Below the pieces are notes generated by a model. The model searched no databases, had not been told where the DNA came from, and worked only from the letters and a program-made list of their open reading frames with translations. DNA of 64,000 bases from an uncultured virus (IMG/VR IMGVR_UViG_3300033148_004664) (lineage: Duplodnaviria; Heunggongvirae; Uroviricota; Caudoviricetes). The position numbers were made by a program, and so were the translations under genes. Where the stretch lies: the IMG/VR virus record IMGVR_UViG_3300033148_004664, one strand, 5' to 3'. Of this stretch, positions 1 to 49,611 are shown piece after piece (within the stretch, counting starts at the first letter, position 1; the number at the start of each line of letters is the position of its first letter).

Positions 1-891
1 GAAAAGTATACAGCTAAAATAACAGCAAAAATCGTAGAGCATTCCAGCTTTAATATAATAAATTATTTCAGAACTAAAGATGTTAAACTCTCGTTTTGGA
101 GACGTATATTGGATAATTGTATCAAGAAACACAATACTGACGTATTTGATTATGTGCTGTCATTTATACGTTATGATATTCAAGGAGATGCTATAGACGT
201 ATTCGGGGGTAGTTTATATGATACAATTGTTTTTGAAGGAGAAGACTATACAAATCCAAGTGATATGCGTAACTTATTAGATTTTATAGATATATTAATA
301 TCTTATGATATTTATCCTACACAAGAAGAAGACAAAAACACTGTTTTGACAGTAGTAATACACGCCGTTAATAATACTGAAGAGTTAAATGAATACATAA
401 ATAAACTTCAATTGAAGTGGCTTGATTGGTTTAACCTTGAGCTGATCTTGACACGTAGAATACAGTTGGGGATCACGTTGAAAGATCTGCGTGAATATCT
501 TGATATGTTGCCGGAAGAAAGTAACATATTTGGTGAATTCCCATTGTTTTCTGTCGCTATACAATCCGGCAATCCCCATTTAGTAAAAATATTACTTTCT
601 AAGTTACAGGTAGATAAACACAAATTAAACTACCTTTTAGAGGAACTTATTAGGTCTTCTGCTAAAGACGTGAGATTGATTAAGTATGTATTACAAGAAA
701 TACCCGAAAAAGATTTAGCGGATTTAATTATAACTTATAGTAGAAGTATACCAGGTAATACTCTCATATCGAAAAAAGCATTAATGATATTAGACAATTA
801 TGATTTTTCTGAAGATGAAAAGAACAGAATTTTGAGTTCGTTATCGGAATTTCAATTGGATTGGTTTAAGGAACATTTATACGGAGATTGA
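1..891 (+). CDS. Ankyrin-like/helical repeat protein, 5' truncated by the window edge
   Basis: Frame is open from base 1. Ankyrin-like PLFSVAIQSGNPHLVKILL; YDIYP motif resembles DIYP/NMYP in 6320 and 7036. Confidence 0.7.
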   Translation, partial: EKYTAKITAKIVEHSSFNIINYFRTKDVKLSFWRRILDNCIKKHNTDVFDYVLSFIRYDIQGDAIDVFGGSLYDTIVFEGEDYTNPSDMRNLLDFIDILISYDIYPTQEEDKNTVLTVVIHAVNNTEELNEYINKLQLKWLDWFNLELILTRRIQLGITLKDLREYLDMLPEESNIFGEFPLFSVAIQSGNPHLVKILLSKLQVDKHKLNYLLEELIRSSAKDVRLIKYVLQEIPEKDLADLIITYSRSIPGNTLISKKALMILDNYDFSEDEKNRILSSLSEFQLDWFKEHLYGD

Positions 892-2294
892 TTATGGAAA
901 ACGACGATTTGATGGGTAGGTATTATGATTATTATAATCAGCATAATTTCTACGAAAGATTAACTGAAATGTTGGATGAGGCTATTACTGATCCTTCTGT
1001 CTCTGAAGAATATTTGATTGCCCTTTTACAAAGACTTGGTACGTTGCCTATCCATACAAGGGTTATAAATAAAGCTGTTATACTAAACAATGTTTCGTTT
1101 TTTGAATTGTTGTTGAAAGAAAAAGAACTCGGATATGCTGATGAGACTAATAACTTTTTTTGGGAAAGAGTTATCCTCAAATCTTTAAAAGAAGAAAGAG
1201 AGGATATTGTAAAATTAATTTTTTCGTATAAAAGACAAGATGATGATTTATTGAAAATAGTTTTTAAATCTGTTTTTGCTCCACAGACGTATTTTGGTGA
1301 AGTAGGGATGCACGGGAAGAAGACGTTTGTAAAAGTTGTTGTGGATTTGAATATCTCTTTGCCATCTATTGGTGCGGAGTATGATCACGCTATTTTGAAA
1401 GAGACAATAGAGATTGTTTATTACACAGATATAAACTTACTTTTTGAATTCTTGGATTTAATTGAGGGATTTAAAATAACATTACCTACAGTAAATATGT
1501 TATTGAGCTATGATAAAGAAAAAATGATTTCGGTTTTTTCCGCGGAAGATTTATTTATACTATTCAATCGTTATCTACAAAATTTATCTAATACGGTTAT
1601 AGAATCATTATTTGGGCTTTGTTTAAGTTATAACTTTAAAAAGGGAATTATTGCTTCGTTATGGTTATATGATGATTCATTGAAGGGCGTGATAGATGAA
1701 TCATCAGATTATGATACTATTTTAACGGCTGCGATTTCTGCAGGTCTGTTTTTGAAATTAGATAACGATAAAGTTAGTGGAATATCACTTTACAGCCGAC
1801 GAATATTGAATCGTCTATTGGAAAATTGTACAGACAAAGATATAGTCATAGAATTTTTAAATAATTCGGAAGGATTTGAATTGTCTTTTGTAGATTGTGA
1901 TAACTTGATAATGAAAGATGATATTGATCTTACACCACAACAATTATTTGGTTTGTTGAAATTCTGTCCTGAGTTTGATGTGGGAGTAAAAACCTATTTC
2001 CGTTGGTATTTCTCAGAAGAAATGATAACAGAAAAACCGGAGATAGTTTCAGTGATCGTATCGAGATACAAGGGATTGTCTAAAATAGATTTTTCGTTCG
2101 GCAAACGATTTAAGCTCTTATTAAATGCGTTTTATAGTAAGGATTATGAAGATATAAAACATTTATTATTGAACCTGAAGAAAGATTGTCCAAGAAATAT
2201 TCTGTATTGGTTTGTTGATCTGTATTCCGCCGAATTTAAAATCCCACAGGATATTGCATTTGAACTTATTGAATTGATACAAGAAAGAGGGTAA
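888..2294 (+). CDS. Degenerate ankyrin-like helical repeat protein (array paralog)
   Basis: 468 aa. VINKAVILNNVSFFELLL and LIEGFKI align by eye with 2303, 3710 and 5028. Confidence 0.6.
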   Translation: MIMENDDLMGRYYDYYNQHNFYERLTEMLDEAITDPSVSEEYLIALLQRLGTLPIHTRVINKAVILNNVSFFELLLKEKELGYADETNNFFWERVILKSLKEEREDIVKLIFSYKRQDDDLLKIVFKSVFAPQTYFGEVGMHGKKTFVKVVVDLNISLPSIGAEYDHAILKETIEIVYYTDINLLFEFLDLIEGFKITLPTVNMLLSYDKEKMISVFSAEDLFILFNRYLQNLSNTVIESLFGLCLSYNFKKGIIASLWLYDDSLKGVIDESSDYDTILTAAISAGLFLKLDNDKVSGISLYSRRILNRLLENCTDKDIVIEFLNNSEGFELSFVDCDNLIMKDDIDLTPQQLFGLLKFCPEFDVGVKTYFRWYFSEEMITEKPEIVSVIVSRYKGLSKIDFSFGKRFKLLLNAFYSKDYEDIKHLLLNLKKDCPRNILYWFVDLYSAEFKIPQDIAFELIELIQERG

Positions 2295-2302
2295 TTTCAT
2301 AA

Positions 2303-3697
2303 ATGAATGAAGAAAATTATAATTATCAAGCATTCTTTAAATATAAACCGGATGTTACGAATGAATTGATAGATCTGAGTCAATCGATAGAAGACGTACC
2401 TTCTGAGTATGTTTTGAAAGTGTTTGACTACTATTTTTGGAGCTATTACATGTTTGACCCAGAAATAGTAGAAAACGTTATAAAAACAAACAATATACGA
2501 TTTTGTGAATTATTATCTCAGTATGAAGAACAATACGAGCCCGAAACACAACCTTTTCCATATGTGTGGAATCAGTTATTGAAGGTGGGTATATTATCCG
2601 CCAAATCAAATGATATAGTTCCTTGGTTGTTGAAAAACGGGAAAACAGAACCACAAGAATTAGTACGTATTCTTATTAAAAATCCCGAAACTGTAGATGA
2701 AATAACACATCTTCTTGTACAACACAATATTTATGTTGAAGTACCCAAATTTTACAGCGGAGAAGAGCTTATTGAATTTCTCATGAATATTACAAAATTA
2801 GCAAGTAATGGGACTTTATTGGCCAATTTATTTAAGCATTTAAGAGGGTTTGAAATTCCTTTACAATACTTCAACAGACTCGCGGAGATTAACAATCCGA
2901 TGTTCGAGATTGAAGATTATGCATACTTAATGAATTATAAAAGTTCAGTCGTAAAGAGTAACGCAGGAAATTTATTTATTGATTATGTAATAACTCATAG
3001 GTATGATTTGCTTATTGCTTTACTGGCACAATACAATCCTTCGTATGCGTCAATGACGGAATTGGATTTAAGGTTTGATGAGATACTTGAAAGATTTATG
3101 GAAGAACAAATACCAATATCTTGCGATTCAACACAGAAAGGGCCTGTATTCGTTAATGCTGTATTGAAGAAATTGTTTTCTCTTGATGTAGATTATGATC
3201 TTGCCCTTGACTTTTTCGATTTCATGGAGTCATTGAAATTGCCAAAGGAATTCTTTACTGAAAGACACAGTCATATATCTATGGGATTTTTCAGTTATGA
3301 TTTATCTGTAAATCAGTATGTTAGATTATTTGAATATTATCCCGGAGATTTATATGCAGATGGAAAGAGACTTGTGTGGGAGTATTGTATGGAAGGGGGA
3401 AGGCCGAATATAATTACGGCGTTACTCCGAAAAGTTACGGGTAACATGGATATTTCTACGAAAATTGCGGATTATTATATGAAATTGCATTATGCTTTGT
3501 CAAGACTTCTTAATTATTCTAAATTAATTTTTAGAACTCCAAAAGAGCAGCGAGAAGTGGAATATATAAAAGACATTCTCAGAAAGATGCATGAAGAAGA
3601 TCCGAGTAATTATGTAAAGATAGCATTTACTGCTTGGGTTTGGGGAGAACAGAAACATATTCTGAATGAATTAATTGATTATATTGAATCGTTATAA
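2303..3697 (+). CDS. Degenerate ankyrin-like helical repeat protein (array paralog)
   Basis: 464 aa. IVENVIKTNNIRFCELL and HLRGFEIP match its neighbours. Confidence 0.6.
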   Translation: MNEENYNYQAFFKYKPDVTNELIDLSQSIEDVPSEYVLKVFDYYFWSYYMFDPEIVENVIKTNNIRFCELLSQYEEQYEPETQPFPYVWNQLLKVGILSAKSNDIVPWLLKNGKTEPQELVRILIKNPETVDEITHLLVQHNIYVEVPKFYSGEELIEFLMNITKLASNGTLLANLFKHLRGFEIPLQYFNRLAEINNPMFEIEDYAYLMNYKSSVVKSNAGNLFIDYVITHRYDLLIALLAQYNPSYASMTELDLRFDEILERFMEEQIPISCDSTQKGPVFVNAVLKKLFSLDVDYDLALDFFDFMESLKLPKEFFTERHSHISMGFFSYDLSVNQYVRLFEYYPGDLYADGKRLVWEYCMEGGRPNIITALLRKVTGNMDISTKIADYYMKLHYALSRLLNYSKLIFRTPKEQREVEYIKDILRKMHEEDPSNYVKIAFTAWVWGEQKHILNELIDYIESL

Positions 3698-3709
3698 GAG
3701 AGGTATAAA

Positions 3710-5008
3710 ATGTCATTACGGTTGAATTCAAGACGAGAAGAATCGCCTTTAATTTTTTATGAAGAACCAGAGAGACATGTAATAGAAATACTTGAATACG
3801 AGGCTTCCGCTTCGGATTCTACACCCGAAGACTTGTATTATGTATTCGATAAGTTTTTTGAATTGTATTCAAACAGGGAAATTGTATTGCCGAAATCCGT
3901 TATTTATAACTGTTGTAAAGCACATAATAGTTTCTTTATGCAAACATTTATAGAGTACTGTGAAAGAAATAATATTAGTGCCGCCAGAATAGATTGGCGT
4001 TTTATTATAATGGAAATCCTTAAAATGAAAGCCTATGATATATTTGACGTCGTATATTATAATTTGATGGATAAAGCTTCTTCTGTTGTATTAAGTACTG
4101 CCAAATCTTTTATTAAAATATATGGAGGTACAATTAAGGATGTAGATAGTTTTTGTGATTTCATTTTTTCTCATGATTTTGATTTGAGCATGGCGGATTT
4201 CGGGCATAATGCATGTTTTCATAGATTCATTAAAAATTTGTTAATGAATTGTAGTGATAAAACATTGGCGTTTCGTATGCTGGATTATATAAAAGATTTT
4301 AAAGGCTTAGATTATAATTTTTATTCGGTTTATTTGGTTGATATGCCTACTAACATATTAACATACAATGATTTGTTAAAATTGTTTGATTATGCTTCGG
4401 AAACTTTGTGTAGTTATTCAACATTGAAAGCTTTATGTCATCGATACTGGGAGGGGGCAAGAGAAGATCTTTTGGGAGTACTGGTTGTACATTGTAATGG
4501 AGGGACATCTGTGTCTCCTGAATTTATTTCTTGTGTAGAATCATTATTGGATTTCGTGAGCGGAATAACAGATATAGAACCATTAGAACAATATGTTGAA
4601 ATTGCGAATTCTGTAGATAAAAAAGGAATTGTTGCAAGTCTTATGATTGAAGAAGCTATGGTTTCAAATAACGTTTCTGTTTTGAAAACGTTATTCTCTA
4701 ACTTTGATATTAATATGAGTTCATGTTCATCATTTGATTTGTTGGATACATTAGCTTTTTATGACTTCAACGATATGTCGGAAAGTATCGCATACTTAAT
4801 ACATACAGGCCAATGGGATAAGCAATATTGGATTCGAGTATTCGAAGTTCTGAGTGATGGAATATTAGTTGAAAACGCCGTTGCAATTATAGAAAATATA
4901 AACCTTACTGATAAGGAAAAGAAATATTTGCGTGATTATGTTATTAAGTACGTATATGACGAAGATAATAGGAATAAGTTACTCATGACGATAAAGAATA
5001 AAAGGTAA
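3710..5008 (+). CDS. Helical repeat protein with LRLxxRREE leader
   Basis: 432 aa, RBS GAGG. Clear paralog of 5028 (CNG, DKKG, NNV, LTxxExxxLRxYV). Confidence 0.7.
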   Translation: MSLRLNSRREESPLIFYEEPERHVIEILEYEASASDSTPEDLYYVFDKFFELYSNREIVLPKSVIYNCCKAHNSFFMQTFIEYCERNNISAARIDWRFIIMEILKMKAYDIFDVVYYNLMDKASSVVLSTAKSFIKIYGGTIKDVDSFCDFIFSHDFDLSMADFGHNACFHRFIKNLLMNCSDKTLAFRMLDYIKDFKGLDYNFYSVYLVDMPTNILTYNDLLKLFDYASETLCSYSTLKALCHRYWEGAREDLLGVLVVHCNGGTSVSPEFISCVESLLDFVSGITDIEPLEQYVEIANSVDKKGIVASLMIEEAMVSNNVSVLKTLFSNFDINMSSCSSFDLLDTLAFYDFNDMSESIAYLIHTGQWDKQYWIRVFEVLSDGILVENAVAIIENINLTDKEKKYLRDYVIKYVYDEDNRNKLLMTIKNKR

Positions 5009-5027
5009 TAAGGGGAGTTTTTGTAAA

Positions 5028-6317
5028 ATGTTAAGACTTGGTAGAAGAGAAGAAGATTTTTCTAATTTTTTTAGTGACTTTTGTCGAATAACCGTACAAA
5101 GACTTATTGAGATAGCTAAGAGGCCGGATTGCAATGCAGAAGATGTACATAGATTCCTTGATTTATTAATACATCATTGTCCCGAAACATGGGTATCTAA
5201 CGGAGTAGTGATACCAAAAGAAGTTATTAACGTCGTTGTACGCAATGCTAATATGGATTTTATTGAAGCATTGTTTGGCTACGACAAGAAGATTGATTGG
5301 GATTATTTACTGACCATGTTGTTTAATGAAAGTGGTTCTTTTGATTTAATACTGAGAATACTTGAATATTTACATAAGAATCATGATCCAAATGTTCGTC
5401 TATATCTTTCTAATACTATCACACATTTTCTTCATCGAACAAATTTCACTTCAGAGGAGACAGAGAAATTATGTAAATTCATATTGAGCGGTTATATCTC
5501 CATAGGAATGTCTGATATTTCAAGTGCATCAGCTTTTGCATATATGTTGATAAGTTTTGCTCCCAATTCAGATCTGGTTTTTGAAGTATTCAATTCTGTG
5601 CGGGGTTTTTTCATACCTTATGAATTTTATTCGGATGATATATTCTATATACCTCGGGATAAATTGGATTTAGATATTCTCATGAGATTGTTCGAGTTTT
5701 CGTATTCTGGTATATGTACAGTTGACGTACCGAAATTATGTCCTCTTTACGCAGAAGCAAATAGATTTGACATCGCTGCTGTGTATGTAGTTTTTTGTAA
5801 TGGAAGAAGAAACGTTCCCTCTGATTTCCTGAATTGTTTAAAAGAGTTATATACTATTATTTCTATAGACAATGATACTGAAATAAGTCGGCTTGTACCT
5901 TATGTAGATACGCTTGAATCAATCGACAAGAAAGGTATGTTTCTTGATACTTTACTTTACGAATGTGTAGAGAAGAATAATGTATTCGGTATGAAAGCTG
6001 TTTTTTCGTTATTCGGTATGTCTGTATTGAATTATCCTTCAATAGACATAGAAGAAACGCTCTATTGGTCTTCAAACAAGGATAAGAGAAGTGTAATTAA
6101 ATATCTTATTAATCTTGGGATCAGACCTAAAGATTTTTGGATTTCTTTGTTCAGGAAAATGTGTGTTCATGATTCTTTGAGTGCTACTGCAATAGTAGAA
6201 ACATTACCTTTGACGAAGGATGAATTGTTACAATTGAGAAATTACGTAGAAAAAATATATTTGCCGTTGAATACAGAGAAGATATTACTTGATAGTTTGG
6301 ATAAAGCAGAGGATTAA
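5028..6317 (+). CDS. Helical repeat protein with LRLGRREE leader
   Basis: 429 aa, RBS GGGGAG; paralog of 3710. Confidence 0.7.
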   Translation: MLRLGRREEDFSNFFSDFCRITVQRLIEIAKRPDCNAEDVHRFLDLLIHHCPETWVSNGVVIPKEVINVVVRNANMDFIEALFGYDKKIDWDYLLTMLFNESGSFDLILRILEYLHKNHDPNVRLYLSNTITHFLHRTNFTSEETEKLCKFILSGYISIGMSDISSASAFAYMLISFAPNSDLVFEVFNSVRGFFIPYEFYSDDIFYIPRDKLDLDILMRLFEFSYSGICTVDVPKLCPLYAEANRFDIAAVYVVFCNGRRNVPSDFLNCLKELYTIISIDNDTEISRLVPYVDTLESIDKKGMFLDTLLYECVEKNNVFGMKAVFSLFGMSVLNYPSIDIEETLYWSSNKDKRSVIKYLINLGIRPKDFWISLFRKMCVHDSLSATAIVETLPLTKDELLQLRNYVEKIYLPLNTEKILLDSLDKAED

Positions 6318-6319
6318 TT

Positions 6320-7033
6320 ATGCTAAAACTTAATAGAAGAGAAGAAGAGCCATTAGAACGTCCTGATATACTTACAAAGGAAACCATCCGTAGCTATTAT
6401 GAAAACGGCGAAGAAGAATTAATACCTCAACTTTTTATAGAAGGCATTTACAGCGGAGCGGATGGAAATGTTGTTTACGATATGTTGAAATATGTAACTG
6501 AATTCAATGATATAAGATTATTTGAACGTTGTGTAGAAGCATTAGGTAAAACTGATTTTTTGAAAGAGTTTATTTTCAATTTAATACGCGAATACCCTCC
6601 ACGTAATTATTTCGTATGGGATATAATTTTAGCCGGATTATCTACTGGAGTTATCGATATTACTATGGGTAATTTCGTTTTATTTGAATATCTAATAGAT
6701 GAAAATGTAGAAGGATTAGATGAAGTTGCTCATGAACTGTTCAGCTATACAGATAATCCTGAAAATATAGCTTTCAATTTCTACGCACGAGCAGTCAACG
6801 ATTGTTCGACTTGGGAATTCGAACGTTTGTTGGATTTACGTTTCCCAGTGAAGGATGAATTATTCCGTTTTATTATAAACAGTTCTTGTCTTCATAAATG
6901 GAATTTTTGTGGAGAATTGATTCATCGTGATATATATCCGAAAGATGAAAAAACAATAAAATTATTATTAAATGAAGATATAGGAGAACTTTCAAAAGAA
7001 AAATTACTTAATTATTATAAAAAGAGGCGGTAA
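6320..7033 (+). CDS. Helical repeat protein with LKLNRREE leader
   Basis: 237 aa, RBS GAGGA; carries the shared leader. Confidence 0.7.
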   Translation: MLKLNRREEEPLERPDILTKETIRSYYENGEEELIPQLFIEGIYSGADGNVVYDMLKYVTEFNDIRLFERCVEALGKTDFLKEFIFNLIREYPPRNYFVWDIILAGLSTGVIDITMGNFVLFEYLIDENVEGLDEVAHELFSYTDNPENIAFNFYARAVNDCSTWEFERLLDLRFPVKDELFRFIINSSCLHKWNFCGELIHRDIYPKDEKTIKLLLNEDIGELSKEKLLNYYKKRR

Positions 7034-7035
7034 TC

Positions 7036-8505
7036 ATGTTACATATTAGTAGACGAGAAGAGGATTTTGATTCTTTACGAGAGAAGAAACGAGTGAACAA
7101 GGATTTTTGGACACAGGTTAGATCTGCTTGTTCGAAAGGTGATATAGATCTTCTTAAATTTCTTATGAGATCAACTGATATTTATGTATTTCCTGATGAA
7201 GATACTAATATCTGTTTATACTTGGCCATAAAAGGCAACCATCCTGATATGGTTGAATTCCTACTTTCGCCTTATAATTCTAAATACAAAATTCCTTCTC
7301 ATCTCGTCATGTATAGTTTCAAAACTAAAAATCCAGAAATAGTAAAACATGTCATAGACAGATTAAAGGAAGAAGGTACATTATTGAAACATGCAGGAAT
7401 GCTTTACGAGTTGGCGGATTACTTGTTTGAATACGATACTGACAATCCAGATGTAAGAAAGATATATCTATTAGTCCGTGATATGTGGGATGACGCAGAA
7501 GATCCCAAAGCTGTTTGGGATGAAAGCCTTCGTGAACAAGTATTGTCAACAAAAGGTTTTTTGGGGAGAGATAGTTTTTCTGTAGATCCAATATCTATGT
7601 TAAAGAGTGCATTTGAAATAGATTGGCCGGAACCGACACTTAATTATTGGAAGAATTTTTCTTCTTCATCGGCTATATTTGAAGAAGGAAAAGTAGATGA
7701 TTTCATAGAAATGTTTACTAAACGTTATGGACCCGAAAAGACAGTCGAATTATTGCGATCGTATCTTCCTCAATCAAAACTCACTCTTTTTGCTTCAAGA
7801 ATAATGGAAGCACCTGGATTTTTTGAAAAGGATTATTTGATTGTTATAGAAGGCATTATGTCGGTTCAGCATCAATTAAAACATTTCTTGAACTATTTAT
7901 TAGAAGGCGCGACTGTATATGAAAATCTTGATTGTGTCAATTATTTTTACAAGACAGTAAAGAAATACAACGATGATATAGATTTCAGCGTAAGAGATAG
8001 TTTGTATATTAACGTCTTCACATTTCCATCCGATGTAGTGTTAAAAGGATTAATTATTTTGTATAGCGCAAAGATTGAACCTCCGTATAATTTGTATAAT
8101 CTTATTGCCGATAATATAGAAGATGAAAAAGAAGCGACTAAAATATATGCTCATTTAATGATTAGATACAACATGTATCCTGCTACTGCTGACGATGCGG
8201 TTGAAGTATTAATAATGTTTTATTATAACAATATTGAATATATGTTGGAACCGTTGATAAAACATATTGAGGAACGTGATTGGGAATCCGCAGTATTATA
8301 TAGGTTGATTCATGCGGGAGCAAATTCAATAGCATATAAATTAATAAACAATTACTGGACGGATTTAAACTTTACGTTTGAGTTTTTAGAAGAAGCGTAT
8401 GAATACGGCGACAGAGCATTGGTGGATTTAATACTTAGTCGTATGGATAAAGATGAAGTCGAACGAGCAAAGAAACTTATTTTTGACCGTGATGAAGAGG
8501 AGTAA
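7036..8505 (+). CDS. Ankyrin-repeat protein with LHISRREE leader
   Basis: SACSKGDIDLLKFL, LYLAIKGNHPDMVEFLL and EEAYEYGDRALVDLIL are ankyrin-like. Confidence 0.75.
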   Translation: MLHISRREEDFDSLREKKRVNKDFWTQVRSACSKGDIDLLKFLMRSTDIYVFPDEDTNICLYLAIKGNHPDMVEFLLSPYNSKYKIPSHLVMYSFKTKNPEIVKHVIDRLKEEGTLLKHAGMLYELADYLFEYDTDNPDVRKIYLLVRDMWDDAEDPKAVWDESLREQVLSTKGFLGRDSFSVDPISMLKSAFEIDWPEPTLNYWKNFSSSSAIFEEGKVDDFIEMFTKRYGPEKTVELLRSYLPQSKLTLFASRIMEAPGFFEKDYLIVIEGIMSVQHQLKHFLNYLLEGATVYENLDCVNYFYKTVKKYNDDIDFSVRDSLYINVFTFPSDVVLKGLIILYSAKIEPPYNLYNLIADNIEDEKEATKIYAHLMIRYNMYPATADDAVEVLIMFYYNNIEYMLEPLIKHIEERDWESAVLYRLIHAGANSIAYKLINNYWTDLNFTFEFLEEAYEYGDRALVDLILSRMDKDEVERAKKLIFDRDEEE

Positions 8506-8509
8506 TACA

Positions 8510-8577
8510 ATGTTACGTTTATCAAGACGAGATGAATTCGATGATTCGATGAATTAGAATTTGAAGATGAAGAATAG
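8510..8577 (+). pseudogene. Leader-only acidic mini-ORF, apparently frameshifted
   Basis: ATG 8510 after GAGGAG reads MLRLSRRDEFDDSMN* (to 8557). One extra T near 8545 gives MLRLSRRDEFDDFDELEFEDEE* (to 8577). Confidence 0.6.
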
Positions 8578-8594
8578 AAAGAAAGGAGTTATAA

Positions 8595-9533
8595 ATGAGA
8601 AAATTAAATATGAAAAAAATAGCTTTGAAACCTGAATGGAGAGAACTTCCCGGAATGGATGAAATATTAGATGCGTATGATGACAGCGATTTGAATTTAT
8701 TAAAGGATTTAATTGAATCAAGTGAAAACAGGAAAGAAATATTGGAATTCGTATATTTGAATGCAGTCAAGGACGGTTGGGTAGATTGCGTTCGTTATTG
8801 TTTGTCGGCTGGAGTAGACCCTGCTGCACATTGGGGAGACGCATTGGTTTTATCAGCACGAAACGGTCATGTAGATGTATTCAAACTTATTAATGACACT
8901 GTCGATGTATATAATACATTCAATAATTATCAAGTACGAATGGCTATTATTTATGCTGCAATGTATAGCCCGGAAATAATAGATGTAATGATAAAGGATT
9001 ATCCTGATGTCTATAATGAGAATATACCAGGTATTATTGAATATCTTATTGATAGAGGCGATTACGGTCCGGCTACTTATCTTTACGAGAAGGCTAAAAG
9101 GAACGGTATTGATATTAATGAGGAAATAGAAGAAGCAATACAAAACATGGATTATCCACAAAAGCGTCAGTATGAAAGATCTTCCGGTTACGATGATAGA
9201 TTTTTAGGCGGCGGAGGAGGTTATGGAAAACCGATGTATTTACTTGAAGACTGGACGTTTCCGGGAAAGGAAGAGGCGAATGATATGTTGATTACCGGTG
9301 CGATGCGGGGAGAGATGTCTACAGTTACTCAAGCATTAAACAGAGGGGCGGATATTCATATCGGACAAGACGCACCTCTGTTTGCGGCAGTATATAATTG
9401 TCATCCTGAAATAGTTGAATTATTATTGGAACGCGGAGCCGATCCGTTCGCACGTAATGGAATGATATTAAGAATATCTAAAATCCACGGTTGCCCTGAA
9501 GCGGCGGAAATACTCGATAGGTATTCTCATTAA
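8595..9533 (+). CDS. Ankyrin repeat protein
   Basis: Canonical repeats: ALVLSARNGHVDVFKLI, ALNRGADIH, APLFAAVYNCHPEIVELLLERGADP. Confidence 0.9.
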   Translation: MRKLNMKKIALKPEWRELPGMDEILDAYDDSDLNLLKDLIESSENRKEILEFVYLNAVKDGWVDCVRYCLSAGVDPAAHWGDALVLSARNGHVDVFKLINDTVDVYNTFNNYQVRMAIIYAAMYSPEIIDVMIKDYPDVYNENIPGIIEYLIDRGDYGPATYLYEKAKRNGIDINEEIEEAIQNMDYPQKRQYERSSGYDDRFLGGGGGYGKPMYLLEDWTFPGKEEANDMLITGAMRGEMSTVTQALNRGADIHIGQDAPLFAAVYNCHPEIVELLLERGADPFARNGMILRISKIHGCPEAAEILDRYSH

Positions 9534-9542
9534 AATTTTTTA

Positions 9543-9571
9543 TTGTATTTCATTAAAAATTTTTGTATATT
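9543..9571 (+). promoter_or_regulatory. Sigma70-like early promoter
   Basis: TTGTAT-N17-TATATT with an upstream A/T tract; same design recurs across the accessory region. Confidence 0.6.
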
Positions 9572-9614
9572 TATACTGAAAGAGCAAAAACCTTTAACGT
9601 TGAGGTGTAAAATT

Positions 9615-10043
9615 ATGTTATCAGTATTCTTTAGTCTTTTTATCTTGTGGAATTTATTCCGTGGATATAAAGAAGGAATCGTAATGTCGATGTCCGGCGA
9701 TAAAACCCATACAGGTTTAATCGAAGGCATAAGGGGGCATAAATACTTTTCTGTATATCATAATATCTCGGCGTTAGGGGATTTTTTATTGTTTTTTAGT
9801 GGTATATGTTTTTGTTATATTGAACTTACTATTCATAATCTGTTATTGATTCTTGGTTTTTTGTTTTTGGGTTGGAGTACTTTTGAAATCGGTTATTCCT
9901 TTGCAAGATACGAATCTGTAATACCTCCTACAGAAAACATTTTGGGTTCAGGAATATATGCTAATGGGAATAAAGTCATGTTGTTATTCATTGGAAGAAT
10001 AATAATGGCTTTACTCTTGATATGGTTGTCTTTCAGTCTGTAG
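9615..10043 (+). CDS. Membrane protein
   Basis: Several hydrophobic helices. ATG 9615 after GAGG is preferred to the TTG at 9543, which is the -35 box. Confidence 0.7.
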   Translation: MLSVFFSLFILWNLFRGYKEGIVMSMSGDKTHTGLIEGIRGHKYFSVYHNISALGDFLLFFSGICFCYIELTIHNLLLILGFLFLGWSTFEIGYSFARYESVIPPTENILGSGIYANGNKVMLLFIGRIIMALLLIWLSFSL

Positions 10044-10056
10044 AGGGTGATTTTTC

Positions 10057-10451: not shown

Positions 10452-10463
10452 GAGAGAAAAGTT

Positions 10464-11103: not shown

Positions 11104-11109
11104 GTCGTT

Positions 11110-11415: not shown

Positions 11416-11429
11416 CAAGGGGGAGTGTC

Positions 11430-11850: not shown

Positions 11851-11855
11851 TAAAC

Positions 11856-13456: not shown

Positions 13457-13468
13457 AGGGAATTTGTC

Positions 13469-15154: not shown

Positions 15155-15169
15155 GGTATATATAACACA

Positions 15170-44847: not shown

Positions 44848-45846
44848 ATGATTTATAAAGAAGCAATAGCGACTGAAGTAGTTCCTGTTGATATAGATTC
44901 TTTATTAGATGTAAATAGTGAGAGTAATTTTGTTAAAAATGCGGCTGTTCAGAAACTCGTGAAACGACAGCCGGACTGTGTGTTTTTGCGAACTCGTGCT
45001 ATCGGAAATCTTGAAGTGGATGGACCGAACACGAACTGGGATGCATTTCCCTATGGTGAATTTTTAAATGAGAAGCCCGGGTTTGGTTACAAAAGTTTCA
45101 TAGGAAGGAAGGCGTTTATTGAGCATCAATCAGACAGTATTAATAATTCTATTGGTGATTTAATAGATGCTTATTTAAACAAGTTTGAACTCGGTACGTT
45201 ATCTACAAAAACATGGTATGACTTGAATGACAAAGAACGATTAGGGGTATTGGCGGATTGGTTGAGAAAAGATAAACTGGGTTCTAATTTATTGGAGTCT
45301 TTTGGATATGATAACTGTATAGAAAAGCAAACAAGAGACGGGTCTATCGAGGTTTTAATGCGGATTGATCGAGCGCGAGCCCCTAAGATTGCAAGACAGA
45401 TTGATTTGAACGAAAAGATAGGCGTTTCTATGGGAACGGCTATTTCATACAGCGAATGTTCTGTCTGCGGGAATAGAGCCTATTATGAAAAGGATTACTG
45501 TGATCATATCGCTTACGGTAAGGGGCGACCTCATATTGTTAATGCGTCTGGAATAAGGAAATTAGTAGATGAAGGTAAATTAAAGCCGGAATGGTTACGA
45601 TTTGTTGTTCAGACTCCGAATGATTTAAAAGCAGTAATCAACGGCGATAGACGTACTGTACAAGCCACGGCGTTTGAAATTAATTATGGATTACAGTTTT
45701 ATGAATTGAGTGTTGTTTCTACTCCCGCGTATTTACGTGGATATGCGCTTGAGAAAGTAGCGAGACAACTAAAAAACGATGAGAACTGGTTATCGGTTGT
45801 ACCGGATGACGTATTAATTCTATTAAAGCAGGTGTTAATGCGATGA
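44848..45846 (+). CDS. Prohead maturation protease (HK97/assemblin-like)
   Basis: NWDAF, FIEH, GVSMG (Ser), CSVCGN..CDH Zn insert, FYELSVV..PA; first gene of the head module. Confidence 0.75.
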   Translation: MIYKEAIATEVVPVDIDSLLDVNSESNFVKNAAVQKLVKRQPDCVFLRTRAIGNLEVDGPNTNWDAFPYGEFLNEKPGFGYKSFIGRKAFIEHQSDSINNSIGDLIDAYLNKFELGTLSTKTWYDLNDKERLGVLADWLRKDKLGSNLLESFGYDNCIEKQTRDGSIEVLMRIDRARAPKIARQIDLNEKIGVSMGTAISYSECSVCGNRAYYEKDYCDHIAYGKGRPHIVNASGIRKLVDEGKLKPEWLRFVVQTPNDLKAVINGDRRTVQATAFEINYGLQFYELSVVSTPAYLRGYALEKVARQLKNDENWLSVVPDDVLILLKQVLMR

Positions 45847-48125
45847 ACTTAACATTACAGGATATTGATGCTGAGATAAAACGAAGAAATTTATTAGATG
45901 ATACTGAAGCGTATAAGTATGCTAATCGGTTCAGAAAACTTGTAGAGCCTCATAATGGCGTACTTGGTTCAACTAAAGATTACAAAAAGGCTTTTGAGGA
46001 CTTTATAGAGAGTTGTGGATATAGTAAAGATTCCGAATTTGCATCAACAGTAGCGCGTGCTACTGTAGAATTGTATCCAGATCATGAGTTTGCATCAGAT
46101 ATTAAAAAGTTTACGGAGAGTGATACTATGAATCTTGCGGTTATTGAAGCATATAAAAATCTTCCTTCGGATGCAGTTGACCCGGGCGATTATCCGAATG
46201 AATCAACTGGAGGGAAGGCGGAAGAGAAATCTAATAAAGAGAGAGCCGAAATAGGCGAGAAACAGGAACGAAAGGAGCGATCTATGGAAAGATTACACGG
46301 GCCGACGAGAGATGTTATTGCTGATGCTGTTGAGCGTGCCCGCGAATTAAAGAGCGACTTTTTGCGAACTTTTGCCGATCTTACAATTGATCTCAATACA
46401 GCGAGTGAAATTATAAGTAAGAATAAAAAGAATCCCAAGGTGAAAGCACTTCGCAAAGCGGTGAATGCATTACGTCCCGTCGCTCCAAAGGCGTATAAGT
46501 ATGCAGGCTTAATAGCAAAGCATATTGAGTCGCTGGAATCTACCGCTTCTCCTGAGGAGAAAGACGTAGACAAGGCGAATAAGGATATTGAAGAGGCTAT
46601 TGATGTCCTCGTTACCGTCAACGAGAAGGCGAAAGAAATTGAGGACGTGTTGTTCAATATCAAGGATCTTATTGATGATGTTATTCCTGATATTGATGAA
46701 GAAGAGGAAGGGGGGGAAACGTTGGATGAAGATGAACTTCCTGAGCCTGAAGATTTAGGTGAGGAAGAGGAAGAAGAGGAAGAAAAGTTAGAAGGTGAGG
46801 AGGAAGAAGAGGAAGAGAAATTAGAAGGTGAAGAGGAAGAAGAGTTACCCGAAGAGGCGTTGAAGAATGAAGAGGAAGAGGATATGTTCGGGAAACTTGT
46901 CACTACGATTAGTAAAGCACAGAAGGCATGGAAAGCGTTATCTCACATGTTCGATAAGCGCGGTTCTACTTATGATTTACCGGATGATCAAAGAGCTTAC
47001 AATACTGATGTAACTGATTATCCGAACGAATCCACGTACAGAGCGGCTGAGAATGCTTCTAATGCGCAGCGTGCGGAAAAGGGTCGTAAAAATATCGAGC
47101 GCGAAAATGCTGGAGATTATACGACTTCTCCTGGTGCTATTCAGGATGTTCGTAAAATCCGAGCGCATTTCGTGCCAGGTGTCAATGCGGCTACGAGTTG
47201 TTATGTAGTTACGGTTGATGATATTCCTGTGTTTAAAGCTTCGTATAAGGACGTGGCGGGAGATCAGATGCATGTGAAAGCTAATTGGGAAACGTTTCTT
47301 TCCGATGAATACCGTAAGGAGATAGAGGATACTGTGAAGACGCGAGGTATTGAAGCTACAGTGGAAGAGATGGAAGGAACGTTACTCCGTACTTCCGCTC
47401 AGAAGGAGCTTTGGTCTCGAAAGATTAAGCATGAGGCTGTCAAGGATAAGAACAAAGTTAAGAAATATTACACTGACGCTTATGGAGATTCTTCTTATGC
47501 CAATGAAATGGTTAAAGATAAGAAGAAAACCAAAGACGTCAAGGCTTCTGTTATCGAACGTCTCAAGGCTGAGAACAGAGAACTCAGACAGAAAGAGGTT
47601 TTACGTGCGAAGGCTAAACGGGCGATTTCTGTCGCACGGAAAATTTCTGCTATAAGATCTGTACCGATGACTACAGCTGAGATAAAAGATGAAGTCAGAA
47701 AATTCATGACTATGAATGATCGTGATTTCAAGATTTTATCCGAGACTATTGATAAACTTGCAAGGGAAGTTCCTGAGCAAAGTGGTATTGTGCATAACAC
47801 TCCGGTAGGAGTTGAAACGCCTTATAATTCGAATGGCAATCTTGAGCAGGTTACCGAAGCCGAAAATGTACCGAAAGAGGTGACTAACTCTGCCAAGAAT
47901 CCTGAGAATGTCGTCACGCCTCCTGATGTGCAGGCGTTTATGTCAAGCAATAGAACGAGACCGAGTACGACTGGGGTTATTCCGCAGGTCAAGACTGCAT
48001 CGGCGGTTGGTAGTGGTATCAACAAACTTGCTGATATGTTTACTACTACTCCGAACAAGTTGAGACGGCTTGGTTTCTCTGAAGAAGAAATTGCCAAGTT
48101 TAACTATCGAGTTAAGCGTCATTAA
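45843..48125 (+). CDS. Scaffold / internal head protein
   Basis: Between protease and capsid genes; poly-Glu tract, coiled coils, duplicated DYPNEST motif. Confidence 0.6.
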   Translation: MNLTLQDIDAEIKRRNLLDDTEAYKYANRFRKLVEPHNGVLGSTKDYKKAFEDFIESCGYSKDSEFASTVARATVELYPDHEFASDIKKFTESDTMNLAVIEAYKNLPSDAVDPGDYPNESTGGKAEEKSNKERAEIGEKQERKERSMERLHGPTRDVIADAVERARELKSDFLRTFADLTIDLNTASEIISKNKKNPKVKALRKAVNALRPVAPKAYKYAGLIAKHIESLESTASPEEKDVDKANKDIEEAIDVLVTVNEKAKEIEDVLFNIKDLIDDVIPDIDEEEEGGETLDEDELPEPEDLGEEEEEEEEKLEGEEEEEEEKLEGEEEEELPEEALKNEEEEDMFGKLVTTISKAQKAWKALSHMFDKRGSTYDLPDDQRAYNTDVTDYPNESTYRAAENASNAQRAEKGRKNIERENAGDYTTSPGAIQDVRKIRAHFVPGVNAATSCYVVTVDDIPVFKASYKDVAGDQMHVKANWETFLSDEYRKEIEDTVKTRGIEATVEEMEGTLLRTSAQKELWSRKIKHEAVKDKNKVKKYYTDAYGDSSYANEMVKDKKKTKDVKASVIERLKAENRELRQKEVLRAKAKRAISVARKISAIRSVPMTTAEIKDEVRKFMTMNDRDFKILSETIDKLAREVPEQSGIVHNTPVGVETPYNSNGNLEQVTEAENVPKEVTNSAKNPENVVTPPDVQAFMSSNRTRPSTTGVIPQVKTASAVGSGINKLADMFTTTPNKLRRLGFSEEEIAKFNYRVKRH
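46757..46845 (+). repeat. Coding tandem repeat (GEEEEEEE[E]KLE)n
   Basis: About 2.5 copies of a 33-36 nt unit. Confidence 0.8.
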
Positions 48126-48147
48126 TAAAGAAAGGTAGGTGCAAATA

Positions 48148-48606
48148 ATGGCTAAAGTTGTTCGTAAATTTTCTGGTTATATGGATACGTTCGATGTGGC
48201 TTCTGGAACTGTTGATACCGGATGGGAGCCTGGTAATATTGCCACGTTGGATACCAACGGCGAATTAGCTTTATATACGGGAAGTGGCAGTACGTATCCA
48301 ATCGGATTTATTATAGATGATGAGGATGAGCTTGCTCAGCCTCCCGAGGGTTACAAGGTTACCGTTATGCATGGTAACGGTCGCCTGCAGATAGACGCTG
48401 AGGATGCGTCCGATGCTGACAACGTGTTTGTGGGGGTTGGAAGTTTCGTTCCCGGTCAGCTTGTTTATGCGACTACTACTGGGAAGATTACTCCTCATTA
48501 TAATGCTTCTGAAGATCAGTATTCCGGTTCTGTGGCTGTTGGCAAGTGTGTTGAGGCACCGAGTGCCGACAACGGTTATGTGTTAGACTTAATCTGTTCA
48601 CTTTGA
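48148..48606 (+). CDS. Capsid decoration/stabilising protein
   Basis: Small beta-rich protein directly before the capsid gene; shares AGAAAGGTAGGTGCAA initiation region with it. Confidence 0.65.
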   Translation: MAKVVRKFSGYMDTFDVASGTVDTGWEPGNIATLDTNGELALYTGSGSTYPIGFIIDDEDELAQPPEGYKVTVMHGNGRLQIDAEDASDADNVFVGVGSFVPGQLVYATTTGKITPHYNASEDQYSGSVAVGKCVEAPSADNGYVLDLICSL

Positions 48607-48654
48607 TGTGAACCGATTAAGATTTTAGATAGATTAGAAAGGTAGGTGCAACAA

Positions 48655-49611
48655 ATGTCTAAAGTGAAGAAAGCAAGTGCCCGTGATGTCGAGATTGCGG
48701 AGAAGCGTCTTACGTCTCAAGGTGCTATTCCCGATTCCATTCCGTATCAGCAGTATGCGGATGCTGATGCTATTGACGAAGAGATCTGGCAGTCGATGCT
48801 GACGGAAGCGGGAAGGCGTGCTATCGGGGCACAGATGGCGGTTCCTATCAGAACGCAGCTTGACTATCAGGGTGTCTGTCGTAAATTCTTCGAAATTGAT
48901 GAATTAAAGCCTGGCGAGATTGCTCGCTATGATAAGGATGTTGACGCTGTCGCCGTTACTGTGGCGAAGCGTGGTGATTCTATTGAATATATTTGGGAAG
49001 GCGAGTATGTTGAGCCGGCGACTTGGGAAATATTTGCTCCTTGGTCGGTTCGTCTTTCTGAATTAAACAAACGCCGGTTTGATGTTCTCAATAGAGGACA
49101 AGAGAAAATGAGGATTAAGTTACAGGAGGAAGAGGATGAGCAGTTCTTAACGTTGGCGGCTGCTACTGTTGCCGCTAATACTGCGAACAATCCTTTACAG
49201 ACTTCTACTAATGGAGTTACGAAGGATTTCCTCAACAAGATCGCCTCACAGGTGCAGAAGTGGGATCTTCCAGCGGCTTATTTCCTCATGCATTTCACGG
49301 CGTTTAAGGATATTCGGGGTTGGACTAATACCGATCTCGATCAGGTTACGATGCGCGAGTTGTTAGAGACGGGGATTTACGGTAATATTTGGGGTATTGA
49401 TATTATCGTGTCCCGTAAGGTTCCTACTAACACCGTGTATTGTATTACCGAGCCGAGGTTCTTTGGTGTTATGCCTATCAGGACTGACGTTATGGTTATG
49501 CCTGATGACAAGCCAAGGAGTGCTCAGATCGGTTATGTTGCTTATGAGGAAATCGGGATGTCTATAATTAATTCTAATGGAATTGCTTATGGCACCTTCA
49601 CTTATTCTTGA
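48655..49611 (+). CDS. Major capsid protein (HK97 fold)
   Basis: About 318 aa; IGAQMAVPIRTQLDYQG, GNIWGIDIIVS..VP, GYVAYEEIG; position in the module. Confidence 0.85.
   Translation: MSKVKKASARDVEIAEKRLTSQGAIPDSIPYQQYADADAIDEEIWQSMLTEAGRRAIGAQMAVPIRTQLDYQGVCRKFFEIDELKPGEIARYDKDVDAVAVTVAKRGDSIEYIWEGEYVEPATWEIFAPWSVRLSELNKRRFDVLNRGQEKMRIKLQEEEDEQFLTLAAATVAANTANNPLQTSTNGVTKDFLNKIASQVQKWDLPAAYFLMHFTAFKDIRGWTNTDLDQVTMRELLETGIYGNIWGIDIIVSRKVPTNTVYCITEPRFFGVMPIRTDVMVMPDDKPRSAQIGYVAYEEIGMSIINSNGIAYGTFTYS

What the first reader, a model, noticed from the sequence alone, without database searches (positions are those of the whole stretch)
3710..8577. Shared N-terminal tag M-L-x-[LI]-x-R-R-[ED]-E on an array of ankyrin-like proteins: candidate capsid-packaging or processing signal for injected cargo
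Seen: five consecutive ORFs start MSLRLNSRREE (3710), MLRLGRREE (5028), MLKLNRREE (6320), MLHISRREE (7036) and MLRLSRRDE (8510), although their bodies are very divergent. Codons vary synonymously (AGA/CGA/CGT, TTA/CTT), pointing to selection on the peptide. Looser basic variants occur at the start of ankyrin 8595 (MRKLNMKKIA) and inside virion-module protein 56035 (LSLKRRAQ). Established: T4 internal proteins carry a short N-terminal capsid-targeting sequence removed by the prohead protease. Inference: a portable address label loading a diversified set of protein-binding effectors into the head for early delivery, possibly anti-defence.
Basis: partly seen in the sequence, partly recalled or inferred. 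Interest (0 to 1): 0.85.

Follow-up and report, generated by a model that had tools for sequence, protein, structure and literature searches.

The report
Shared N-terminal tag on phage repeat proteins
Four fast-diverging helical-repeat proteins (and one tiny 15-codon gene) of an uncultured large phage all begin with the same nine-residue floppy peptide, which looks like a common address label, possibly for loading them into the virus head, though nothing yet shows who reads it.

Summary
The motif is real. M-(x)-L-[RKH]-[LI]-x(1,2)-R-R-[ED]-E occurs exactly five times in a six-frame scan of the 64 kb window. All five are + strand ORF starts at 3710, 5028, 6320, 7036 and 8510. Four head acidic all-alpha repeat proteins of 237-489 aa. 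The fifth is only a 15-codon mini-ORF upstream of an untagged ankyrin gene (8595).

Orthologues from three metagenome contigs keep the tag while the residues just behind it drift. AlphaFold models leave it as a low-confidence N-terminal extension outside the solenoid. Codons at positions 2-5 differ but conserve residue class, which points to selection on the peptide. The R-R codons, though, are 10/10 [AC]GA, which is unexplained.

The tag and the protein family were found nowhere else. The phage is a roughly 136 kb myovirus whose head genes distantly resemble Bacillus phage G.

My reading is a portable address tag read by one common partner. A T4 CTS-like capsid-loading role is the leading candidate but is unproven, at about 0.3. 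No tag-like motif recurs in the protease, scaffold-like protein or capsid protein. A degron or adaptor handle, or a translation-level role, remains open.

The parts
3710..5008 (+). Tagged gene 1 (432 aa, acidic). The tag is MSLRLNSRREE at 3710-3742, the variant with two extra residues.
   Evidence: ORF list, regex, profile score 17.7 bits. Paralogue of 5028 (28% identity, E 6e-39). Orthologue P0050 starts MALRLTSRHEEDF. pI 4.77.
5028..6317 (+). Tagged gene 2 (429 aa). The tag is MLRLGRREE at 5028-5054.
   Evidence: 24.5 bits. Orthologues P0002 and P0003 start MMLKL[NS]RREEDLSE. AlphaFold mean pLDDT 86.3, all-alpha, residues 1-11 below pLDDT 50. Only generic helical-repeat structural matches, Z up to 8.1. 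ESM Atlas nearest clusters are ankyrin.
6320..7033 (+). Tagged gene 3 (237 aa). The tag is MLKLNRREE at 6320-6346.
   Evidence: 21.6 bits. No Pfam or PHROG family. Shares only the tag with the others by BLASTP. No orthologue search was run for it.
7036..8505 (+). Tagged gene 4 (489 aa). The tag is MLHISRREE at 7036-7062. Ankyrin repeats at residues 31-107.
   Evidence: 23.3 bits. Pfam Ank_2 E 1.2e-09. Orthologue P0048 (46% identical) starts MLRISRREENF. AlphaFold mean pLDDT 78.5, all-alpha, residues 1-19 below pLDDT 50. One low-depth contig of run X1 carries AGA>AGG at 7053, a synonymous change inside the tag.
8510..8557 (+). Tag-only mini-ORF of 15 codons, MLRLSRRDEFDDSMN*. Most likely the stranded 5' end of a former tagged gene.
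   Evidence: 25.2 bits, the best score. Its first 38 nt align with the start of 7036; I count 25/38 identical on the alignment. A contig of run X1 is identical from 8545 to 8670, but its 25 nt upstream are unlike the window.
8595..9533 (+). Untagged ankyrin-repeat gene (312 aa) with its own Shine-Dalgarno sequence (AAAGGAG).
   Evidence: Pfam Ank families, E down to 4.5e-13. Sequence read. Orthologue P0007 starts VVTLNMKK, with no tag.
1..3697 (+). Upstream untagged members of the same array: ORFs 1-891 (5' open), 888-2294 and 2303-3697.
   Evidence: 2303 is a distant relative of the 3710/5028 family (E 1.7e-4 by BLASTP; E 2.4e-06 in the profile search). Weak Ank_2 hit in ORF 1-891. Their N-termini do not match the tag.
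44848..49611 (+). Head module holding the candidate readers of the tag; no link to the tag has been shown. It comprises the prohead protease (44848-45846), a 760-aa acidic scaffold-like protein (45843-48125), a 155-aa protein (48139-48606) and the major capsid protein (48646-49611).
   Evidence: phrog_18299 head maturation protease E 4.3e-17 and phrog_2522 major head protein E 1.2e-59. Phage G gp19 at 25% identity and gp27 at 41%. 'Scaffold-like' rests only on position and the acidic sequence. No tag-like site by profile.

Best explanation
The motif is a lineage-specific peptide address tag. It is a disordered N-terminal extension of 9-11 residues: M-(x)-L-[RKH]-[LI]-x(1,2)-R-[RH]-[ED]-E, usually followed by [DENS]-[FLP]. 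It sits on at least four diversifying acidic alpha-solenoid or ankyrin-type proteins of 28-58 kDa.

These proteins are encoded in a mosaic gene array of an uncultured myovirus of about 136 kb. That phage's head genes distantly resemble those of Bacillus phage G.

The tag is most likely read by one common partner, while the variable repeat bodies bind different targets. In that case the proteins would be loaded into the capsid and co-delivered with the DNA, as the T4 capsid-targeting sequence does for its internal proteins. The acidic end of the tag may mark a cut site.

Shown: the tag exists, is highly non-random, is conserved above its surroundings, is modelled outside the predicted fold, and is confined to this lineage.

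Inferred: The mini-ORF at 8510 is read as the stranded 5' end of a lost or replaced tagged gene.

I put about 0.7 on 'peptide tag with a common reader' and about 0.3 on 'capsid loading' specifically. The confidence given here is for the capsid-loading version.
For: Non-randomness: 5 of 5 regex hits in six frames are + strand ORF starts inside 3710-8536. The DNA pattern gives 4 hits against 0 in 100 shuffles. The tag profile separates the five sites (17.7-25.2 bits) from the next best (3.5 bits).

Peptide-level conservation:
- Position 3 uses CGG, AGA, AAA, CAT and CGT, all coding basic residues.
- Position 4 uses TTG, CTT, CTT, ATT and TTA, all coding Leu or Ile.
- 3710 and its orthologue carry two extra residues inside the tag. 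A peptide tolerates this more easily than a fixed RNA site would.

Conservation above context, as identities in tag / next ~25 residues / rest:
- 5028-P0002: 7/9, 10/28, 274/395.
- 5028-P0003: 7/9, 9/28, 263/395.
- 3710-P0050: 8/11, 12/26, 171/396.
- 7036-P0048: 8/9, 14/25, 207/465.
- Paralogues 5028-3710: 7/10, 4/27, 102/408.

Portability: the bodies of 6320 and 7036 share only the tag with the 3710/5028 family by BLASTP. hhalign probabilities are 29% and 35%.

Not part of the fold: pLDDT is below 50 for residues 1-11 of 5028 and 1-19 of 7036, in otherwise confident all-alpha models.

No RNA element detected: fold z-scores of the five start regions are 0.11, 0.40, 0.94, 1.35 and -0.44, with different structures. 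Rfam finds nothing relevant.

Capsid-loading logic is established elsewhere:
- In T4, the first 10 residues of IPIII suffice for packaging, and diverse internal proteins of T4 relatives share CTS-like starts (passages of PMC9026906; PMC3012670).
- In P1, the N-terminal 30 residues of DarB suffice (passages of PMC9024508).
- This phage encodes a prohead protease and a large acidic scaffold-like protein.
Against: - Nothing ties the tag to the head. The profile finds no tag-like segment in the protease, the scaffold-like protein, the capsid protein or any other ORF of the window.
- The tag ends R-R-[ED]-E. This does not fit the L/I-X-E rule of T4 gp21 or the A-X-E rule of SPN3US gp245. The specificity of this phage's protease is unknown.
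- The genes lie about 35 kb upstream of the head module. They sit in a tightly packed co-directional block beside DNA methylase genes, which looks more like an early or counter-defence region.
- The cargo would be large and acidic (pI 4.6-5.0), unlike the small basic T4 internal proteins.
- Untagged paralogues sit in the same array.
- The R-R codons are 10/10 [AC]GA against a background share of 0.44-0.50, and the first R is AGA 5/5. Some nucleotide-level constraint or shared descent in that half is therefore not excluded.
- An intact tag survives on a 15-codon ORF, which a pure protein-address model does not need.
- Only five copies plus four orthologues exist, and the other 72 kb of the contig could not be read.
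Confidence: 0.3

Rival explanations
1. The tag is a degron or docking handle. A short linear motif ties each solenoid protein to one common cellular or phage machine, for example an AAA+ protease. Either it limits the lifetime of these (probably early) proteins, or it makes them adaptors that bring whatever the repeat body binds to that machine.
For: - The tag is a disordered N-terminal extension on binder-type repeat proteins.
- Conservation is at the peptide level.
- The genes lie in a non-structural block beside methylase genes.
- Tagged and untagged paralogues coexist, as expected if only some members are routed.
- The hydrophobic-basic-hydrophobic start (L-R-L, L-K-L, L-H-I) recalls N-terminal ClpX recognition motifs. 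I recall this from the literature and did not check it with any call.
Against: - No reader has been identified.
- No similar tag occurs in any other phage or genome searched, so there is no link to a conserved host machine.
- The host is unknown.
- The acidic second half of the tag is not part of any degron I can name.
Confidence: 0.25
2. The conserved element acts at the nucleotide or translation level. It would be a shared translation-initiation region, for example the purine-rich AGA-MGA-GAW-GAR tract just after the start codon. That tract could be bound by a regulator or tune initiation, and the peptide would be a by-product. The mini-ORF at 8510 would then be a working upstream ORF for the ankyrin gene 8595.
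For: - The R-R codons are 10/10 [AC]GA against a background share of 0.44-0.50, which I calculate as p of about 3e-4 to 9e-4 if the copies are independent. AGA is 5/5 at the first R.
- The tag survives intact on a 15-codon ORF with its own Shine-Dalgarno sequence, directly upstream of another gene.
- All tagged genes are tightly packed, with gaps of 2-19 nt.
Against: - Codons at positions 2-5 differ widely while residue class is kept.
- Spacing between the ATG and the purine core differs: 12 nt in four copies and 18 nt in 3710.
- Upstream regions share nothing beyond a Shine-Dalgarno sequence.
- There is no shared or unusually stable RNA fold and no Rfam family.
- A natural variant carries AGA>AGG inside the tag. 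This rests on one contig at depth 2.6.
- In a related strain, the DNA upstream of 8545 differs while 8545-8670 is identical. The tag is therefore not a fixed partner of 8595.
Confidence: 0.15
3. The tag has no function of its own. It is simply the best-preserved remnant of a common ancestor of a tandemly duplicated gene family.
For: - 3710 and 5028 are clear paralogues, and 2303 and 888 are distant relatives.
- 5028, 7036 and 8595 are helical-repeat proteins by model or Pfam, so common descent of the whole array is possible.
- The restricted Arg codons could reflect shared descent.
Against: - The tag is far better kept than the 25 residues behind it and than the bodies. Paralogues show 7/10 in the tag against 4/27 and 102/408.
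- A disordered N-terminus outside the fold would be expected to decay first.
- Upstream relatives 888 and 2303 have lost the tag or never had it.
- Orthologues at 46% overall identity keep 8/9 tag residues.
Confidence: 0.1
4. The tag is a propeptide removed by a host protease of the Prp type. Prp trims the N-terminal extension of ribosomal protein L27, and of the capsid and scaffold proteins of staphylococcal phage 80alpha, in Firmicutes.
For: - The tag starts ML[KRH][LI][NGS], like the first five positions of the published L27 motif MLxx(D/N)LQ(F/L)F'A(S/H)KK (text and tables of PMC9405229). For example, that paper gives MLRLDLQFF'A for B. subtilis L27.
- The nearest cultured relative of the head genes infects a Bacillus.
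Against: - The part of the motif next to the cut, LQ(F/L)F'A, is absent. The tag has R-R-[ED]-E there.
- This phage's capsid protein and scaffold-like protein do not start with an L27-like motif.
- The host is unknown.
Confidence: 0.03

Closest known systems
Capsid targeting sequence (CTS) of phage T4 internal proteins IPI, IPII, IPIII (and Alt), and the CTS-like starts on variable internal proteins of T4 relatives
   Same: Both are an N-terminal peptide of about 10 residues shared by proteins whose bodies have diverged beyond recognition. Both sit in a variable gene set, on a phage that has a prohead protease and a scaffold. Both tags end in Glu. The logic of 'one label, many exchangeable cargos' is the same (PMC9026906 passages; PMC3012670 passages).
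   Different: The cut motif differs: T4 needs L/I-X-E, while the tag here ends R-R-[ED]-E. The protease here matches phrog_18299 and phage G gp19, and no Pfam family matches it even at E 10. Cargos here are 28-58 kDa acidic solenoids rather than small basic proteins. The genes lie far from the head module. Packaging and cleavage are untested. I did not compare the tag with the T4 CTS sequence by any tool.
N-terminal packaging signal of phage P1 DarB
   Same: An N-terminal segment suffices to send a large anti-restriction protein and a reporter into the capsid (PMC9024508 abstract and passages). This shows that large cargo can be addressed in this way.
   Different: The P1 signal is 30 residues on a single protein, not a short tag shared by an array. 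No sequence comparison was made.
L27 N-terminal extension and Prp cleavage motif of Firmicutes, copied by phage 80alpha capsid and scaffold proteins
   Same: Both are a short N-terminal extension starting M-L-[KR]-L-[ND] (PMC9405229).
   Different: The tag lacks the LQ(F/L)F'A core at the cut site. Here the tag sits on accessory repeat proteins, not on capsid or scaffold proteins.
Poxvirus ankyrin-repeat proteins with a shared terminal F-box-like (PRANC) module (recalled from memory; no call)
   Same: Both are a family of variable ankyrin-type binders in a virus, each carrying the same short terminal module that couples them to one common machine.
   Different: The poxvirus module is C-terminal, is a folded domain several times longer, and acts in eukaryotic hosts through the ubiquitin system. 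The resemblance is one of logic only.

Membership tests
T4-type capsid targeting sequence (CTS) | Short N-terminal peptide shared by several otherwise dissimilar proteins of one phage | tested here: met
   Five starts share the motif. The bodies are dissimilar.
T4-type capsid targeting sequence (CTS) | The tag ends in the cut motif of the phage's prohead protease (L/I-X-E for T4 gp21), and that motif recurs in capsid and scaffold proteins | tested here: not met
   The tag ends R-R-[ED]-E, with no L or I at P3 (against PMC9026906). The tag profile finds nothing in the protease, scaffold-like or capsid proteins. The specificity of this phage's own protease is unknown, so a different cut rule is not excluded.
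T4-type capsid targeting sequence (CTS) | Prohead protease of the T4 gp21 family | tested here: inconclusive
   The protease matches phrog_18299 and phage G gp19. There is no Pfam family at E up to 10 and no PDB sequence match. Its fold was not predicted.
T4-type capsid targeting sequence (CTS) | Tagged proteins are present in proheads or virions, and the tag is sufficient for packaging | not testable with these tools
   This needs virion proteomics or reporter fusions. The phage is uncultured.
Prp substrates (L27-type N-terminal extension) | Motif MLxx(D/N)LQ(F/L)F'A(S/H)KK, with the cut after F | tested here: not met
   Only the ML..[NGS] part is shared. LQ(F/L)F'A is replaced by RR[ED]E (against PMC9405229).
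Ankyrin-repeat proteins (Pfam Ank clan) | Pfam ankyrin repeat match above the gathering score | tested here: met
   Met for 7036 (Ank_2 39.1 bits, cutoff 27.3) and for untagged 8595 (50 bits). Not met for 3710, 5028 and 6320, which have no Pfam family. 5028 is a generic alpha-solenoid by structure search, and its nearest language-model clusters are ankyrin.
Twin-arginine (Tat) signal peptide | An R-R motif followed by a hydrophobic core region | tested here: not met
   R-R is followed by acidic residues and then by amphipathic helices of the solenoid (helix 11-31 in 5028). No hydrophobic stretch is visible in the sequences. The Tat consensus is recalled from memory.

The most novel reading that the evidence does not exclude
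The tag is a handle that couples a set of fast-evolving, phage-encoded alpha-solenoid binders to a single effector machine, such as a host AAA+ protease or a phage enzyme. Each repeat body would then deliver a different host protein, for example a defence factor, to the same fate. That would make a bacterial-virus counterpart of the poxvirus ankyrin/F-box adaptors. The tag-only mini-ORF could then act as a free competitor peptide.
Probability: 0.12. Interest if true: 0.85.

Novelty: new variant of a known kind. Interest (0 to 1): 0.5.

Why it matters
If the tag loads proteins into the head, CTS-type cargo addressing would not be confined to T4-like phages. It would exist in a phage G-related lineage, with a different tag and different chemistry, and would handle 50 kDa repeat-protein binders. 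That would give a new nine-residue packaging label for engineering.

If instead it is a degron or adaptor handle, it would point to a phage strategy of routing many host targets to one machine.

Either way, the tag marks a small, fast-changing set of probable host-interaction proteins that no database names. It also offers a simple experimental entry point: one peptide and one unknown reader.

Tried and rejected
- **Whole genome:** none is held for this window. The other roughly 72 kb of the 135,734-bp contig (length) could not be scanned for more tagged genes.
- **DNA of the related metagenome contigs:** two scans of metagenome contigs found no relative, and the first IMG/VR scan found none. 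Only protein orthologues were available. dN/dS on the tag and conservation of the mini-ORF could not be tested.
- **Phage database:** no DNA match to the array and no protein match to the 760-aa protein.
- **Tag pattern in IMG/VR:** 3 single hits, of which 1 is an internal Met of a long ORF and 2 are ORFs of 12-14 codons. I read these as chance.
- **Tag pattern in 185,579 species' genomes:** 56 single hits, close to my hand estimate of about 50 by chance. Eight are one conserved 268-280-aa protein of Desulfobacterales-type MAGs starting MF[KN]I.RREEM. None lie in arrays.
- **Relatives carrying the neighbouring radical-SAM gene:** 80 IMG/VR loci were fetched. The 1.18 Mb held at that point (84 loci: these 80 plus L001-L004) has no tag. 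The best profile score was 13.6 bits, at a site that the pattern itself had selected.
- **Phage G record:** no tag pattern.
- **Complex prediction:** residues 1-30 of 7036 with the protease and the capsid protein gave no answer (score 0.00, controls not run). This is not evidence either way.
- **Sequencing runs:** one coded DNA run held a small share of the region, and no RNA holder is listed. Large parts of the region were without cover.
- **Loose-end sequences from that run:** they do not occur elsewhere in the window.
- **Promoter and terminator scan of 1-12000:** at chance level, 61 found against 62.7 expected.
- **Scaffold tail resemblance:** the C-terminal end of the 760-aa protein (KLRRLGFSEEEI) looks a little like the tag by eye, but the profile does not report it. 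Rejected as not significant.
- **Tat signal and Prp propeptide readings:** rejected; see the membership tests.

Full report
**What is there**

The window is part of a 135,734-bp contig (contig length). Almost all of its genes lie on the + strand. It is a tailed phage:
- tail sheath (phrog_2839, E 2.1e-37);
- major head protein (phrog_2522, E 1.2e-59);
- head maturation protease (phrog_18299, E 4.3e-17);
- an Amidase_2 endolysin;
- many DNA methylase genes.

The capsid protein is 41% identical to gp27 of Bacillus phage G, and the protease is 25% identical to its gp19. No closer phage record exists.

The first 9.5 kb hold a tightly packed array of genes for acidic proteins (pI 4.6-5.0). The ORFs are 1-891 (5' open), 888-2294, 2303-3697, 3710-5008, 5028-6317, 6320-7033, 7036-8505 and 8595-9533.

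**Check of the observation**

- The regex hits five times in six frames. Every hit is a + strand ORF start, at 3710, 5028, 6320, 7036 and 8510.
- A degenerate DNA version hits four of them, against none in 100 shuffles.
- A profile built from nine tags (five from the window, four from orthologues) scores the five sites at 17.7-25.2 bits. The next best site in the window scores 3.5 bits.

Three points need correcting.
- The fifth 'ORF' is only 15 codons (8510-8557, MLRLSRRDEFDDSMN*). It lies upstream of the ankyrin gene 8595 and in another frame, and 8595 has its own Shine-Dalgarno sequence.
- The 'looser variants' at 8595 and inside 55984-56673 get no support. The orthologue of 8595 has no tag.
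- Among the tagged proteins only 7036 has Pfam ankyrin repeats. 3710 and 5028 are paralogues (E 6e-39), and 5028 is modelled as an all-alpha solenoid without a named family. A language-model search places 5028 next to ankyrin clusters. 6320 was not folded.

**Peptide or nucleotide?**

Evidence for selection on the peptide:
- Position 3 is coded by CGG, AGA, AAA, CAT and CGT, all basic residues. Position 4 is coded by TTG, CTT, CTT, ATT and TTA, all Leu or Ile.
- The 3710 lineage carries two extra residues inside the tag.
- Nothing is shared upstream beyond a Shine-Dalgarno sequence.
- The five start regions show no common or unusually stable RNA fold, with z-scores from -0.44 to 1.35. Rfam finds nothing relevant.

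Evidence against a purely peptide reading:
- The two Arg codons are [AC]GA in 10 of 10 cases, while those codons make up 0.44-0.50 of Arg codons elsewhere. The first Arg is AGA in 5 of 5.

I cannot explain this bias. It may reflect shared descent, a preference for A-rich codons, or a second constraint at the RNA level. One low-depth natural variant has AGA>AGG in the tag of 7036.

**Conservation in relatives**

Only a handful of relatives exist in the protein collections.
- 5028 has P0002 and P0003, which start MMLKL[NS]RREEDLSE.
- 7036 has P0048, which starts MLRISRREENF.
- 3710 has P0050, which starts MALRLTSRHEEDF.

Identity in the tag, the next ~25 residues and the rest of the protein:

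| Pair | Tag | Next ~25 | Rest |
|---|---|---|---|
| 5028 - P0002 | 7/9 | 10/28 | 274/395 |
| 5028 - P0003 | 7/9 | 9/28 | 263/395 |
| 3710 - P0050 | 8/11 | 12/26 | 171/396 |
| 7036 - P0048 | 8/9 | 14/25 | 207/465 |
| 5028 - 3710 (paralogues) | 7/10 | 4/27 | 102/408 |

The tag is therefore the best-kept part of these proteins. Yet AlphaFold leaves it outside the fold: pLDDT is below 50 for residues 1-11 of 5028 and 1-19 of 7036. That combination argues for a function of the peptide itself.

The bodies of 6320 and 7036 are not demonstrably homologous to the 3710/5028 family. The tag is therefore either portable or vastly better conserved than everything behind it.

**Distribution**

- A profile of the 3710/5028 family, run against 1.84 billion representative proteins, found 4 proteins. 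Three are the window's own (5028, 3710, 2303) and one is P0050.
- The tag pattern gave 3 scattered single hits in IMG/VR.
- It gave 56 in the species genomes. Eight of those are one unrelated conserved protein, and none lie in arrays.
- The 1.18 Mb held at that point has no tag. That is 84 loci: 80 IMG/VR loci carrying the neighbouring radical-SAM gene, plus L001-L004.
- It is absent from phage G.

The tag is a private invention of this phage lineage.

**The mini-ORF and mosaicism**

The first 38 nt of the mini-ORF align with the start of 7036 (25/38 identical by my count). Its peptide (RRDEFDDS) resembles that of 7036 (RREEDFDS).

In coded run X1, one 151-nt contig is identical to the window from 8545 to 8670, but its 25 nt upstream are unlike the window. 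Other contigs break off at 7023 and 6034. These are single, low-depth records, but they suggest the array is mosaic between strains.

I read the mini-ORF as the stranded 5' end of a tagged gene whose body was lost or replaced. That it is still intact is a mild point in favour of a translation-level role.

**How it most likely works**

I read the motif as an address tag recognised by one common partner, with the variable repeat bodies binding different targets (about 0.7).

The best-precedented reader is the prohead. In T4, the first ten residues of IPIII suffice for loading into the scaffold core. The protease then removes them, and variable internal proteins of T4 relatives share CTS-like starts (passages of PMC9026906; PMC3012670). 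P1 DarB has a 30-residue N-terminal signal (PMC9024508).

This phage has a protease and a 760-aa acidic scaffold-like protein, and the tag ends in Glu.

But nothing here links the tag to the head:
- No similar motif occurs in the head proteins.
- The ending R-R-E-E fits neither the T4 rule (L/I-X-E) nor the SPN3US rule (A-X-E).
- The genes lie in a block that looks early, or concerned with counter-defence.

I therefore put capsid loading at about 0.3, a degron or adaptor handle at about 0.25, a translation or RNA-level role at about 0.15, mere ancestry at about 0.1, and a Prp-type propeptide at about 0.03. The Prp reading is low because the tag shares only ML..[NGS] with the L27 motif and lacks its LQ(F/L)F'A core.

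**Relation to earlier notes of this scan**

A word search returned several AI notes on arrays with shared N-terminal tags in other viruses, most read as CTS-like. They are not independent evidence.

Two of them suggested a check that I ran here: does the tag copy the scaffold tail, or a cut mark that recurs in head proteins? It does not.

**Verdict**

This is a real, lineage-specific N-terminal peptide tag on a small mosaic array of repeat proteins. It is a new variant of the 'one label, many cargos' kind. Its reader is unknown.

Noticed in passing
window 12749-22562, 41752-42606, 57750-58655(-): Very heavy load of DNA methylase ORFs: seven N6_N4_Mtase ORFs (12749, 19404, 20025, 20766, 21411, 41752, 57750-) and two C5 methylase ORFs (13898, 15170). 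The ORF at 13898 matches only the first half of the C5 profile (positions 2-180 of 324). This suggests broad anti-restriction self-methylation.
   Followed up: no
window 45843-48125: The 760-aa protein after the protease has a long poly-Glu tract and an internal repeat beginning DYPNEST (two copies). It has no family in Pfam or PHROGs. I infer a scaffold or internal head protein from its position only.
   Followed up: partly
window 30035-30376 and 32071-32406: Two small Cys-rich proteins are recent paralogues (75% identity, identical first 26 residues).
   Followed up: partly
window 10057-10230, 10712-10879, 31188-31556: Small proteins share Cys-rich starts. 10712 and 31188 both begin with a C-x-x-C-K-[FW]-W motif and paired up in the N-terminus scan. 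10057 reads similarly by eye (C-K-D-C-K-Y-W). They sit among short membrane-like ORFs just downstream of the array.
   Followed up: no
window 6034, 7023, 8545 (run X1): Low-depth contigs of one coded metagenome run match the array in patches (7% of sampled words). They break away from the window at 6034, 7023 and 8545, which suggests strain-level mosaicism of the array.
   Followed up: partly
window 44230-44398: tRNA-Pro(TGG) and tRNA-Lys(TTT) lie just upstream of the head module.
   Followed up: no
L085, L087, L096, L104, L118, L127, L131, L132: A conserved 268-280-aa protein of Desulfobacterales-type MAGs starts MF[KN]I.RREEM and accounts for 8 of the 56 genome hits of the tag DNA pattern. 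Its body is unrelated to the array proteins.
   Followed up: partly
window 11856-12737: A radical-SAM-like gene next to the array has relatives at 35-63% identity in at least 134 IMG/VR stretches. It is far more widespread than the array itself. Function unknown.
   Followed up: no
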